Below, one piece after another: positions 9,920-59,354 of a stretch of 64,000 nt of DNA. This DNA comes from Octopus vulgaris (taxonomy: Eukaryota). The translations under genes were made by a program, and so were the position numbers. How positions within the stretch are numbered: position 1 is the stretch's first letter; every line of letters begins with the position of its first letter. The DNA is taken from the NCBI GenBank assembly GCA_951406725.2, contig OX597816.1:116436001-116500000 (forward strand). Reading direction: 5' to 3'. Below the pieces are notes generated by a model. It was not told the DNA's origin and did not search any database. It worked only from the letters and a program-made list of their open reading frames with translations.

Positions 9920-10120
9920 GATTCGCTAGCTTCTGCACGCATTTTTTTCTCTCCTTGTTTCTCTCCGTGTTTCTTTTCTGTGTATCTTTCTGTTGAAGAG
10001 CGTAGGCTCGAAACGTAAAAGACTTGTTTTATTTATATTCCTGAGCGCCATACTAATACAATTTTTTGTTTGTACTCCACCTGCCTTCGTCTTTTGTTTA
10101 TTTTCATAAAGCTTCTCGTT
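9920..10120 (+). mobile_element. Family H1 hammerhead-bearing repeat
   Basis: UCUUU-CUGUUGA-A-GAGC(GUAG)GCUC-GAAAC-GUA-AAAGA at ~9985-10022. Flanked by TA-rich microsatellite. Confidence 0.7.
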
Positions 10121-13112: not shown

Positions 13113-13116
<4 letters not shown>

Positions 13117-13362
13117 TACAATTATAATTGGGGGCACAGATGTTTCTGTGCCTATATACTGAAGATAGAAGCTAAATCCGTCTAACTACTCCAAATTATC
13201 ACTTTATAATTAACATATGTTGAAAGCGAGGAAGTAGACTAACAAAAATTCATAAAATAATTCAGACAGTTTTGGATTCACCAATTTCTGGATTAATTTA
13301 GCGTCTATCTTCAGCATATATAGCCACAGAAGCCTCTGTGCCCACAATTATAATTGTATTTT
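13113..13362. repeat. Fold-back element, ~65-70-bp imperfect inverted arms
   Basis: AAAATACAATTATAATTGGGGGCACAGA...CTGAAGATAGA vs TCTATCTTCAG...TCTGTGCCCACAATTATAATTGTATTTT. Confidence 0.85.
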
Positions 13363-13367
13363 ATACT

Positions 13368-13575
13368 AGGCGCAAAAGTGGCTGTGTGGTAAGTAGCTTG
13401 CTTACCAACCACATGATTCCGGGTTCAGTCCCACTGCGTGGCACTTTGGACAAGTGTCTTCTACTATAGCTTCGGGCCGACCAAAGCCTTGTGAGTGGAT
13501 TTGGTAGACGGAAACTGAAAGAAGCCGGTCGTATATATGTATGTGTGTGTATATGTTTGTGTGTTTGTGTTTGGT
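13368..13575 (+). mobile_element. Family A SINE, 5' half
   Basis: GTGGCTGTGTGGTAAGTAGCTTGCTTACCAACCACATG...GGGTTCAGTCCC, near-identical to other family A copies. Confidence 0.9.
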
Positions 13576-14176: not shown

Positions 14177-14476
14177 ACACACATTCACATATATGTATAC
14201 ATACATAGAATACATACTCTCACACACATATGTCACCAGTAACCAAAATTCCCTAAAAGCAATTGTAGAAGATACTTGCAGAAGCGAAATGAACTCGGAA
14301 TCGCATGTTGAAGATTATTCCTATGCACATAGGAATAATCTTCAACATGCAATTCCGAGTTCATTTCGCTTCTGCAAGTATCTTCTACAATTGCTTTTAG
14401 GGAATTGTGGTTACTGGTGACATATGTGTGTGAGAGTATGTATTCTATGTATGTATACATATATGTGAATGTGTGT
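14177..14476. repeat. 300-bp near-perfect palindrome
   Basis: 149-bp arms, 2-nt centre (14326-14327), two mismatches. Explains the twin ORFs 14193+ and 14460-. Confidence 0.97.
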
Positions 14477-14710
14477 GTGTATTAAAAATTAATATAAACA
14501 GCTAGGCGCAATATAATACAATAAAGGAAGAATTTTTATCGCGACTAATTGTGACGCGTAGGTCCAGAAAAGGATGTTGTAAAGAAGTGTCAAAGCACTA
14601 TTATTGCAAGAAATAAGAGTTAGAAACTCTTAATACTGTAAGAAGTGCACAATATATATATATATATATATTCTGACAGGGGAAAGAACCGCCCTATGAG
14701 CATTTTAGAA

Positions 14711-14761
14711 CCACTAGACTAGACTAGTTTCGCCTATCAGTTGTCGGCTCATCAGTAGTGG
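14711..14761 (-). ncRNA. Type I hammerhead ribozyme with intact catalytic core
   Basis: Minus strand: CCACUA-CUGAUGA-GCC(gacaacugaua)GGC-GAA-ACUA(guc)UAGU-C^UAGUGG. Stem I 6 bp, stem II 3 bp, stem III 4 bp, GUC cleavage triplet. Confidence 0.8.
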
Positions 14762-14982
14762 CTACACAAAAGCTCGATTGTTTGGCTAAGTCTGGCTGTG
14801 AGTATATATATTTTTACTATAAAAAATTTATGGCTGATTTAGAGAAATGCTAATACGTATATCAAAAATTAATATAAATAGCTAGGCGCAATATGAAGGA
14901 AACATTTTATCGTCAATAACTGTGACTGAGATGCCGAAATTCTTTAATACTGTAAGCAGTGCAAAATATATATGCACTGACA

Positions 14983-15070
14983 GTCACTACTGACAAGCCT
15001 GCAAATGATAGGCAAATATGGTCTAGTAAAGTTATCTTAGAGACGCTCATGGGGTGGTTATCTCCCTTGT
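14983..15070 (+). repeat. Degenerate inverted copy of the 14674-14761 hammerhead unit
   Basis: CACTA-CTGACAA-GCC...GATAGGC-AAAT..GGTC-TAGT...GCTCATGGGGTGGTT..TCCCTTGTC. Core is mutated. Confidence 0.65.
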
Positions 15071-15474
15071 CCGTCGGCAATGAGGGTCATCTCGCGCCGG
15101 TATATATTGTTTTTAAGAAAACTCTTTGAAAAGACATTACCTAAGACCAATTTCACTGTATTAAGCCTTCAATTTAACAGTTTCATAGATGTACGTTTCA
15201 TAGATGTGTGATACACTGTTCATGGGGACTAATCTTTTGCACACGCCAGTAAATAGTATACGAAAATATTCGTGCGATGGGAGGATTTCATATAGTGTGT
15301 AGAGGAGATGAATCGTTTGAAAGAAAGAAACGTTATTATAAATCTTTTAAGTGCTTTTCACTCCAACACGAATATACCTGTAAATATCTGAATTCACAAA
15401 CATAGAAATACCCACCAATATATGTGTGCATGTGAGAACATGTATGCATATGTGTATAAGCACATGTGGATCGT

Positions 15475-15585
15475 TGGCGATTTTTCCCCCTCTTCCTTTT
15501 CTCTTGGACTTTCCTCCGTCTCCTGTTTCTGATGAAGAGCTTTGCTCGAAACGTAAAATAACTTTTCTTTCCTTCCCTGAGCGTC
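15475..15585 (+). ncRNA. Family H2 repeat with minimal hammerhead (15526-15558)
   Basis: UUU-CUGAUGA-A-GAGC(UUU)GCUC-GAAAC-GUA-AAA. Stem III has no loop, so it could only form in trans. Confidence 0.65.
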
Positions 15586-15629
15586 ATATATATATATAAG
15601 TATACATACTTATATATACTTGTATAGAC

Positions 15630-26260: not shown

Positions 26261-27885
26261 GTTTCTTTATTAGCCACACAGGGCTGCACACAGATAGAAC
26301 AAATTACAAGGTAGAGCTTTTCTTTTGAAGGTTTAAAAAAAAAAAAAAGGAAGGGGGAGTTTCGATCAAAAGGGATCATAAAAGGAGAGAAAGAGGACAA
26401 AAAAAGGGGGTTAAAAAAAAAGGGGGAGAGGAAAAAAAAATTGATCAATAGGGATCGTTATCACAGAAATGTCAATATGAAGTGTAAAGGGGAGGACAGG
26501 TGAGGTTTACCCGTGGAAAGAAAAGCCTACGGAAAAGACCACGGTAACCTCGGTCAATGGAGTCACATGTTATATTTCTTTTTTTTTTTTTTTTGCAAAT
26601 AAGCAACTCTCTGTTTTCAATTTCTGGGTTCATAGGATCATGCTCAAGGTGGCTTCGTCATTCATACGTGCCATTCTTGCTACATTCACCCATCTTTTTT
26701 AAAACATTCGCTAGACAAAACTTGCCTCTCTACTCTCACTTTCCTTTTCAAGTGGTACTTGAAGAAGTTGATGAGAGATTGACCAGAGAGGAAAGTGTTT
26801 GTCTCCAATCCTTTCAGACGCGTCCACCAGATACATTCTTTCGCCATAGCCACAAGGATGATGAAAATAGCTCTTCCTTCCCGTTTGAAGGAAGGAGGCG
26901 TGACAATATTGATGATAGGCTCAGCTGATAAACCGACTCGTCCCACACGTGACAGCAGTTGTTCGACACAAGCCCACAGGTCAGAAATTGTTGGACACTG
27001 CACGAGTGCGTGCAGAACGGTTTCGTCGCTCTGACCGCATCTCGGGCAGGTCGGCCCCGTGTTTCTCGAGCCGTGTCTGTAGAGCTTATCCCGAACGGGT
27101 AGCGCTTCTCGGTAGCACTGCCAGGCCAGGGATCTCTGGAAGTTGTCCATGGGCCCTGGCCCGAAAGTCGTCCTGAACAGGCGGGTCAGGTACTCCTCGT
27201 CGACGTCCAGGTTCGCCCCGAGCTCGTCGTCGTACCTCCCCTCCACTAAACCCCTATAGAATGCTTTGGTTGTGTTGAAGTCACTCAAGGTCGACCCAGG
27301 ACGGCAGAGTTGCTTGAGAGCAACGCGACACTCGCGGTGCCATTCGCCCTTCTTCGGCCTCTTTTTGATCCACGATTGCAGTTCGGTCATGGAGATGAGC
27401 TGCGGGAAAGCGTGCCTCACAAACGGCGACCACACCTGTTCACCGTCGTCTACATAGAGCCAGAGATGTCGCAGTCTCAGCGTGTGTCTGCGCATCATCA
27501 ACCACGGCATGCCCAGCCCTCCTTTTAACGGGTGTTGACAGCAAATGGATCGCCTGACCATCGGGACGCATCCTTTCCACAAGAAGCGAAAGAGAATGCG
27601 TTGTAGTTTGGTGATGGTAGGGTCGGGACAAGGTACGACGGTCAGGCGGTAGTAGATGGCGGACGCGATGTACGTGTTCGTCACCTCCGCCCGACCTTTT
27701 AGGGACAGTTTCCTCTCGGCCCATTGCCGGGCGAGAGTGACCACCCTACTCGTTATCTCGTTCCAGTTCTTCTCCACTTGGAGGTCCGGACCAAACCAGA
27801 CCCCGAGCAACTCAACCGGGCCGTCGGTCCAGCGTCCCACGACGGAGGCGCTGGTGGACGGCATGGGCTTGCTTCTCCAGGTGCC
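26261..27885 (-). mobile_element. L1/Tx1-clade LINE, 5'-truncated (ORF2 C-terminus plus 3' UTR), embedded in (GATA)n
   Basis: ~400 aa open: LLGVWFG, W..RKLSLKGR, FLWKG, GGLGMP, CPRC...ETVLHALVQC (zf-RVT CCHC). A frameshift in an A-run near 26695 hides the probable end RWVNVARMARMNDEATLSMIL* (stop 26630-26632). The 3' UTR ends AATAAAGAAAC. Confidence 0.9.
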
Positions 27886-27946
<61 letters not shown>

Positions 27947-27948
<2 letters not shown>

Positions 27949-28089
27949 CTTTTTATTGTGGCCACACAGGGCTAAACACAGAATAAAAATGGACGAAATA
28001 CAATGTAGAGTTTTTTTTCTTTTCGAGGTGGGATGGGTGGGACACATAGAAAAAAACAACAAAAAAAAAACGTTCGATCAATAGGGATC
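27947..28089 (-). mobile_element. Short 3'-end copy of a related L1/Tx1 subfamily
   Basis: Shares GCCACACAGGGCT..ACACAGA, GTAGAG.TTTT and GATCAATAGGGATC with 26261-26457. Confidence 0.75.
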
Positions 28090-58587: not shown

Positions 58588-59354
58588 GGCGGCGGCGGAC
58601 AGCGTTTTCGTGTCATGACCGCCTCTGGACCGGACGGGACCCCTGGACGATGGGATCCCGGGGTCGCAATATGCGTTCGTGGTGTCGATGTTCACTGAGT
58701 CCTGCAATTCGCATCAGTTCACGCGGATAGCCTCGCTCTTCATCGACGGACGAGCCAAGTGATCCCCCGTCCAGGGTTTCAGTATTTGTTGCTGCTACTA
58801 CTATTACTACTACTACAAACAATCACGTACGGAATAGGACGTGGTACGTTCTCCGCGAAGGAAGGAAAAAAAGAAACGAAACGGAAATCGAGCGGCGGCA
58901 GCAGCAGAACAGGGCGCGACTGCTGACGCAGGAGAGGAAGGAAGGAAGAGTGAGAGAAAATAAAACGGTCGTGGAGCGGCAAAGCGCGCGGCGCCGTCGG
59001 CCGGGCGCGCTGGTTGTCGGGCGGGCGCTGGCTGGATGAGACGTGCGCAGTCGACAGCGAGCGTGGCTTCGGAGCGGGTGGCCGCGCTGCTGCTGCAGTG
59101 TTAGAGGGCCGACCAAGATGAAGGCGAGGGAGCCCGGCCGCGGCTTACGAATGGGGCGGATCGCATTTTATCGTGTTCGGCACCACTGCGTTCGTCACCA
59201 CCGAATAAATATGATTTGGTTGCATGCACCATGCTTTCGTTCTTTTAGGTGCTTATGCAGGCGTGAATGGACTTAGACACACTATCGGCCCTCCTATCAA
59301 ATACCGAGCAGATTGATGGGCGGAGGAAGAAGTGTTCTGGCTTCGGCGGCTACA
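58588..59354. other. GC/CpG-rich island; possibly an LTR-like element or promoter
   Basis: Abrupt CpG-rich composition, GGGCGG boxes, and TGT (58611)...ACA (59354) ends. No TSD seen. Confidence 0.5.

What the first reader, a model, noticed from the sequence alone, without database searches (positions are those of the whole stretch)
14711..14761. Hammerhead with a complete core and a stem III able to fold as a monomer
Seen on the minus strand: CUGAUGA, GAAA and GUC all intact, stem I CCACUA/UAGUGG, stem II GCC/GGC, and stem III ACUA/UAGU closing a GUC loop. Predicted cleavage is between 14717 and 14716. Stem III contains a direct repeat (CUAGU CUAGU). Inference: a small duplication may have turned a dimer-dependent minimal ribozyme into one that works as a monomer.
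Basis: partly seen in the sequence, partly recalled or inferred. Interest (0 to 1): 0.75.

Follow-up and report, generated by a model that had tools for sequence, protein, structure and literature searches.

The report
Fossil retrozyme copy with hammerhead ribozyme
This is one old, partly decayed copy of a repeat family that carries a predicted self-cutting hammerhead RNA, a known kind of animal jumping element, and the small duplication that caught the eye is shared by most copies of the family rather than special to this one.

Summary
The motif is real: a type I hammerhead on the minus strand (14709-14763, predicted cut 14717/14716); 0 of 200 shuffles gave one. It sits in a dispersed 343-nt non-coding repeat whose copies are about 14% from their majority sequence. 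They are circularly permuted, often longer than one unit, end at microsatellites and carry back-to-back inverted arms, as this copy does. That is a non-LTR retrozyme, likely spread by Penelope-type enzymes.

The 5-nt repeat is present three times, not twice, and is the family norm (55 of 66 copies; 21 versus 1 genome-wide). Two- and four-repeat copies are scattered slippage products. Helix III is still an interrupted palindrome: marginal as a monomer hairpin, strong as a dimer helix. So 'dimer turned monomer' is at best an untested event in the family's ancestor. Monomer-cleaving type I hammerheads are the published norm in invertebrate retrozymes. This copy has a stem II lesion, and cleavage was not tested. 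The scan has noted other retrozyme families in this genome before, but not this sequence. Ordinary; low interest.

The parts
14709..14763 (-). Type I hammerhead motif: stem I (8 bp), CUGAUGA core, stem II (3 bp here, 5 bp in the family), GAAA, helix III, C17; predicted cut 14717/14716
14718..14728 (-). Helix III region, an 11-nt interrupted palindrome: 4 bp plus GUC triloop as monomer, 5 + U.U + 5 as dimer (predicted)
14713..14727 (-). Three direct copies of a 5-nt unit; the family norm, prone to slippage
14745..14745 (-). Substitution in this copy that breaks the fourth pair of the family's stem II (U-A to G.A)
   Evidence: other copies in public runs carry the family letter
14690..14790 (-). 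Extended stem I (internal loop and distal helices) of a full-length hammerhead; eroded in this copy
14474..14983 (-). Long arm of the insertion: about 1.4 permuted units of the 343-nt repeat (unit positions 150-189, 225-343, 3-318; 79-88% identity), 3' end next to a CA/TA-rich tract
14982..15074 (+). Short inverted arm (unit positions 65-157), back to back with the long arm; holds a second hammerhead with a destroyed core

Best explanation
The motif is the type I hammerhead of one old genomic copy of a 343-nt non-coding repeat family, likely a non-LTR retrozyme that was likely pasted in by a Penelope-type reverse transcriptase and is probably decaying without function. Shown: the motif, the family, the unit length, the permuted more-than-unit copies, the inverted arms and the family-wide triple repeat. 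Inferred life cycle of the master elements: tandem transcript, cleavage after each GUC, ligation to a self-paired circle, then target-primed copying into microsatellites. Helix III is predicted to work both ways: weakly as a 4-bp triloop hairpin in a lone ribozyme, and more stably as an 11-bp helix between two tandem ribozymes. This copy has a single intact ribozyme and a shortened stem II, so at most it would cut once, probably slowly, if transcribed, and could not release a circle.
For: Family: 41 matches from 40 scored of 124 candidates, 75-87% identity apart from the window itself; 55 distinct hits in 65 loci. Unit 343 nt, GC 38%; circular fold -109 kcal/mol against -68.5 +/- 5.1 for shuffles, 0 of 100 as low. 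22 of 48 loci are longer than one unit and 2 of 48 hold two tandem ribozymes; 3' ends fall in unit positions 255-320 in 30 of 48; a microsatellite lies within 30 nt of the 3' end in 27 of 48 against 14% background. 24 of 69 loci have an adjacent inverted arm, all 24 back to back, the layout described for Penelope-like elements (10.1101/2021.04.23.441226, passages). Compensatory changes between subfamilies: pair 2.1-1.1 A-U 34, G-C 5; a distal pair G-C 25, C-G 4 (Fisher p 0.002 and 0.004, copies not independent). Repeat number: three in 55, two in 9, four in 2 of 66; exact patterns 21 versus 1. Decay: core intact in 17 of 48 copies; CpG sites 45% mutated in the set found without the ribozyme as query. 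Size and type match mussel retrozymes of 350-390 bp (PMC7229834, section 14).
Against: No cleavage, transcript or circle was observed here. No autonomous Penelope-type partner was tied to this family: none of 30 of 85 nearby ORFs scanned matched GIY-YIG. No long tandem array and no target-site duplication were found. Helix III shows no compensatory change (0 of 4 pairs), so its pairing rests on geometry. The number of pairs with a double change is not above shuffles (11 vs 9.4, 142 of 500). Core non-CpG mismatch (10.6%) is lower than outside the ribozyme (16.5%), which could be subfamily divergence, detection bias or some constraint. This copy is among the better preserved: 5 of 46 pass a strict stem test that under-counts one subfamily. 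Folding energies ignore tertiary contacts and were not calibrated on a known active hammerhead.
Confidence: 0.8

Rival explanations
1. First reader, strict form: a duplication at this locus converted a dimer-dependent minimal hammerhead into a monomer-active one.
For: The repeat is there, and removing one unit in silico raises the cost of the active fold by about 5.6 kcal/mol.
Against: Three repeats are the majority state (55 of 66; 21 vs 1). Two-repeat copies are scattered (one clade rejected, p-AU 0.033, on a poorly resolved tree) and no older (13.5% vs 12.9%, p 0.51). 4 of 10 loci with several ribozymes mix repeat numbers within one insertion.
Confidence: 0.02
2. First reader, family form: a 5-nt slippage in the family's ancestor lengthened a 6-nt palindromic helix III and gave the ribozyme monomer activity that it lacked. 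This is compatible with the best explanation.
For: The site slips by 5 nt in both directions. Other hammerhead-like sequences in this genome appear to use the plain 6-nt palindrome (for example L129, L139). In context the 4-bp helix closes at -1.0 kcal/mol against +5.7 for the short form. Lengthening helix III gave weak monomer cleavage in a Schistosoma minimal hammerhead (PMC4209133, part 2).
Against: No sister family with the short helix shares the 343-nt unit (30 of 109 matches fetched). A palindrome nested in a palindrome yields a direct repeat without any duplication. A two-ribozyme transcript is predicted to prefer the double-hammerhead fold by about 11 kcal/mol with or without the extra unit.
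Confidence: 0.35
3. The unit is the pseudo-LTR of an autonomous Penelope-like element and these are truncated copies, not a circular-RNA retrozyme.
For: Partial tandems, inverted arms and microsatellite targets are Penelope traits. Retrozymes and pLTRs are reported to be related (10.64898/2026.07.22.740005, abstract and part 1).
Against: The unit joins to itself on both sides in copies up to 666 nt, with no common unique extension. It has no ORF and a canonical rather than minimal hammerhead, and it folds as a closed circle (z -8).
Confidence: 0.12
4. This copy is a domesticated, active ribozyme that cuts a host transcript.
For: Core, stem I and helix III are intact. The locus is shared with related organisms, probably including a more distant one (7 differences and 11 gap letters over 14662-14854).
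Against: About a third of copies keep the core, as independent decay predicts (0.32 expected; 17 of 48 seen). This copy differs from the majority at 18 columns, including stem II and the internal loop.
Confidence: 0.06

Closest known systems
Metazoan non-LTR retrozymes (Cervera and de la Pena 2020, PMC7229834; mussel 350-390 bp, axolotl 330/350, coral 220-245)
   Same: Non-coding unit of a few hundred bases, GC under 45-50%, one type I hammerhead per unit, strongly self-paired predicted circle, tandem or more-than-unit copies.
   Different: Here only old dispersed copies (about 14% from the majority) and at most dimers were found. No RNA or circle was shown. I saw no description of this sequence family; the paper's supplement could not be read.
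Canonical type I hammerheads (Rfam clan CL00010; Hammerhead_HH9 RF02275; Schistosoma Sm-alpha)
   Same: Core, GUC site, 6-8 bp stem I with an internal loop placed to meet loop 2, short helix III.
   Different: Scores 28.1 bits, under the HH9 gathering score of 52. Tertiary contacts were not tested.
Dimer-type hammerheads with palindromic stem III and loop III (newt, Aedes; PMC3088659 Fig. S8 legend; PMC4209133)
   Same: Helix III and loop read as a palindrome that gives a 10-bp class dimer helix.
   Different: Here the palindrome is odd, with a central U.U, and long enough for a 4-bp monomer hairpin.
Minimal hammerheads of Penelope-like element pLTRs (PMC4209133)
   Same: Type I; insertion geometry of Penelope-like elements.
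   Different: Those lack helix III and extended stem I and flank an RT-endonuclease ORF. The motif at window 15529 is of that kind; this one is not.

Membership tests
Type I hammerhead ribozyme | Core C3-A9, G12-A14, A15.1-U16.1, H17 | tested here: met
Type I hammerhead ribozyme | Three helices with helix I open-ended | tested here: met
   8, 3 and 4 bp; covariation in helix I across subfamilies, none in helix III
Type I hammerhead ribozyme | Rfam family threshold | tested here: not met
   HH9 28.1 bits against 52: not a member of that Rfam family, but of the structural class
Type I hammerhead ribozyme | Loop 2 to stem I tertiary contact | not tested
   Geometry is compatible; contact nucleotides were not scored
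Type I hammerhead ribozyme | Site-specific self-cleavage | not testable with these tools
   needs in vitro transcription
Non-LTR retrozyme | Non-coding 150-450 bp unit, low GC, one type I hammerhead per unit | tested here: met
   343 nt, GC 38%
Non-LTR retrozyme | Tandem organisation | tested here: met
   22 of 48 loci exceed one unit and 2 of 48 hold two tandem ribozymes; this copy has one intact ribozyme only; no long array seen
Non-LTR retrozyme | Highly self-paired predicted circle | tested here: met
   z -8.0, 0 of 100 shuffles, computed on the family majority
Non-LTR retrozyme | Expressed as circular RNA | not testable with these tools
   only assembled contigs were offered
Penelope-like element pLTR | Flanks an RT plus GIY-YIG ORF | tested here: inconclusive
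   none among 30 of 85 ORFs from 3-kb loci and the window; longer flanks not read
Penelope-like element pLTR | Partial tandems and back-to-back inverted copies | tested here: met
   24 of 69 loci
Minimal (dimer-only) PLE hammerhead | Helix III absent or 1-2 bp; no extended stem I | tested here: not met
   4-bp helix III and extended stem I

The most novel reading that the evidence does not exclude
A 5-nt slippage in the family's ancestor turned a 6-nt dimer-only palindrome into an 11-nt interrupted palindrome that serves both folds: fast double-hammerhead cutting in tandem precursors and slow single cutting. The same nucleotides can also pair with the catalytic core and hold the circle uncut. 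The natural two-, three- and four-repeat copies would then be a ready-made series for testing how hammerheads move between dimer and monomer modes, and how animal retrozyme circles avoid cutting themselves.
Probability: 0.2. Interest if true: 0.45.

Novelty: new member of a known kind. Interest (0 to 1): 0.2.

Why it matters
Little as it stands. It adds one old retrozyme family to a class already characterised in coral, mussel and axolotl. A review states that most invertebrate type I hammerheads form a stable helix III and cleave as monomers (PMC7761336, passage). What remains of value is a cheap test case: a helix III that can pair within one ribozyme or between two, with natural length variants. 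It bears on the question, left open in PMC7229834 (Discussion), of what stops animal retrozyme circles from cutting themselves.

Tried and rejected
Private duplication: rejected. Chance motif: rejected. Assembly artefact: rejected.

Expression: no RNA holder listed. Two runs guessed to be RNA gave three short contigs from other copies of the family. Neither is evidence either way.

Orthologue conservation: the close relatives are nearly identical over the locus, and the places of the 7 differences in the more distant one were not shown, so selection could not be tested.

Autonomous partner: the only RVT_1 hit near a copy (L060) looks like an L1/Tx1-type LINE by motifs that I recall, not a Penelope RT.

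Energy ranking of copies uses fixed columns and mis-registers stem II in one subfamily, so I did not use its values to rank activity. The script stopped before folding subfamily C and the window. The tree is star-like, with 1 of 63 inner branches well supported, so it gives no order of events. A cluster of 3' ends at unit positions 159-167 may come from breaks at an expanded TA run and was not read as a second start site.

Literature: five searches. The octopus searches listed no paper that, by title or abstract opening, describes this family; of them only the PLE preprint was opened. The supplement of PMC7229834, file 1 of the PMC4209133 supplements and PMC5785218 could not be read and may hold similar helix III sequences.

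Full report
1. Observation. The minus strand at 14763-14709 reads as a type I hammerhead exactly as described: core 14755-14749, stem II of 3 bp around an 11-nt loop, GAAA, helix III of 4 bp around GUC, C17 at 14717. Stem I is 8 bp and continues into distal helices. The 5-nt unit occurs three times, the third spanning C17 and the start of stem I. A strict descriptor gives 1 site in the window and none in 200 shuffles. Rfam gives Hammerhead_HH9 at E 1.4e-4, below gathering. Contigs of public runs reproduce 14712-14853 without a difference.

2. It is one copy of a family. The window lies in a 2.8-Gb animal assembly. That it is octopus-like is my recall of its repeats and the wording of earlier scan notes, not a call result. 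Three DNA searches each scored 40 candidates, of 124, 70 and 389, so counts are lower bounds. 55 distinct ribozyme-region hits were aligned. After dropping two rows of a duplicated locus, 43 rows over 100 nt lie 13.8% from the majority, and 17 of 48 spanning copies keep all 12 core positions. Sequence upstream and downstream of the ribozyme overlaps, which closes a 343-nt unit of 38% GC; as a circle it folds 8 standard deviations below shuffles. In the window the element is a long arm of about 1.4 units (14983 to 14474, minus) and a short inverted arm (14982-15074, plus) with a dead second ribozyme. Across 48 loci, 22 exceed one unit, 2 hold two tandem ribozymes, 30 end in unit positions 255-320, and 27 end within 30 nt of a microsatellite against 14% background. 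24 of 69 loci have an adjacent inverted arm, all back to back.

3. The repeat is a family trait. Of 66 copies from 69 loci, 55 have three repeats, 9 have two and 2 have four; two of the nine were fetched by a pattern that asked for two repeats. In the set found with the non-ribozyme part as query, 11 of 14 spanning copies have three and 3 have two (one place is counted twice). Exact genome-wide patterns give 21 versus 1, 8 versus 2 and 5 versus 0. Two-repeat copies fall in different subfamilies, are no more diverged (p 0.51), and one clade is rejected at p-AU 0.033 on a poorly resolved tree. 4 of 10 loci with several ribozymes mix repeat numbers inside one insertion, so the number changes by slippage during or after insertion (inference). 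At least four subfamilies with different loop 2 or stem I keep the same 11-nt helix III. If a duplication made it, it predates them.

4. The structure was under selection in the masters; the copies look like decay. Pair 2.1-1.1 switches A-U to G-C in 5 copies and a distal pair G-C to C-G in 4. Cells with a double change number 33 against 17.0 +/- 3.5 in shuffles, but the number of such pairs is not raised (11 vs 9.4), and copies are related. Helix III is 91.8% paired with no compensatory change. In the set not chosen by the ribozyme, non-CpG mismatch is 10.6% in the core, 12.2% in the rest of the ribozyme and 16.5% outside; at CpG sites it is 45%. The share of intact cores matches independent decay (0.32 expected). 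The window copy differs from the majority at 18 columns, including a U-to-G change at 14745 that cuts stem II from 5 to 3 contiguous pairs, and changes in the internal loop and distal helix. It is still among the better-preserved copies.

5. Monomer or dimer. All values are nearest-neighbour predictions without tertiary contacts and without a calibrated control. The isolated hairpin is +0.8 kcal/mol; in context it closes at -1.0, against +5.7 with one repeat removed. The active fold lies about 3.1 kcal/mol above the ensemble for this copy and 4.4 for the majority, against about 8.7 for the short forms. But the 11 nt are an interrupted palindrome whose self-duplex is -10.9 kcal/mol, against -4.8 for the short form. 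In a two-ribozyme transcript the double-hammerhead fold is 11 kcal/mol better than two monomers with either length. My reading is that the masters cut mainly as double hammerheads in tandem RNA and weakly as monomers (inferred). I put about even odds on detectable in vitro cleavage of this copy and under one in ten on a role in the animal.

6. Comparison with what is known. PMC7229834 (sections 13, 14, 17 and passages; supplement unreadable) defines metazoan non-LTR retrozymes and reports monomer cleavage at about 0.8 per min in coral and 0.1 per min in mussel, and dimer dependence in axolotl. PMC7761336 (passages) says most invertebrate type I hammerheads form a stable helix III and cleave as monomers. 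PMC4209133 (parts 1-2 of 4, supplement passages) describes short palindromic helix III and minimal PLE hammerheads. PMC3088659 (passages, Fig. S8 legend and its garbled text) shows an Aedes motif whose loop III pairs into a 10-bp dimer stem, and reports that an Aedes candidate was inactive in their assay. 10.64898/2026.07.22.740005 (part 1 of 5, passages) links retrozymes to PLEs. 10.1101/2021.04.23.441226 (passages) describes partial tandems and inverted copies. PMC11167929 (passages) reports two internal RT start sites and protein-assisted cleavage in a PLE. PMC6155905 was seen as passages. Searches with octopus plus hammerhead ribozyme or retrozyme listed no paper that, by title or abstract opening, describes this family. 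Earlier scan notes describe several other retrozyme families in this genome; none matches this sequence or place.

7. Verdict. Works like, and by the testable features is, a non-LTR retrozyme with a canonical type I hammerhead; cleavage and circles are untested. New member of a known kind, interest 0.2.

Noticed in passing
window 14177-14476: A 149-bp inverted repeat, 99% complementary with a 2-nt spacer, abuts the 3' end of the retrozyme. Its inner arm is single-copy in the genome search. The arms are far more alike than the element beside them is to its family; recent fold-back, gene conversion or an assembly artefact. It may hold a decayed minimal hammerhead near 14260-14300 (by eye, untested).
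   Followed up: partly
window 15524-15560 (+); similar at 9993 (+) and 3221 (-): Minimal PLE-type hammerhead with a 4-nt palindrome in place of helix III and an unpaired base before stem II. It lies in another repeat (15466-15594, also in L020 and L029). The other two have a U at position 3.
   Followed up: partly
window 58620-58778 (-): Isolated 5.8S rRNA copy, 101 bits, with no other rRNA hit in the window; probably a dispersed pseudogene.
   Followed up: no
window 26689-28077 (-): 463-codon open frame with a zf-RVT domain (E 4.9e-8): a LINE fragment.
   Followed up: partly
window 13362-13573: Abundant repeat present in about 13 of 29 other loci; looks like a tRNA-derived SINE by recall.
   Followed up: no
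window 13113-13362: Element with 46-67 bp inverted ends, about 90% complementary; MITE-like.
   Followed up: no
L060:1724-3064 (+): A LINE reverse transcriptase frame (RVT_1, E 1.2e-30) starts within 20 bp of a retrozyme copy at unit position 234. Earlier notes report LINE insertions at one site of other retrozyme families; not checked here.
   Followed up: no
L129, L131, L138, L139, L142, L145, L155: Other hammerhead-like sequences with the plain 6-nt palindrome as helix III and no match to the 343-nt unit; 109 pattern matches against 16 for the control.
   Followed up: partly
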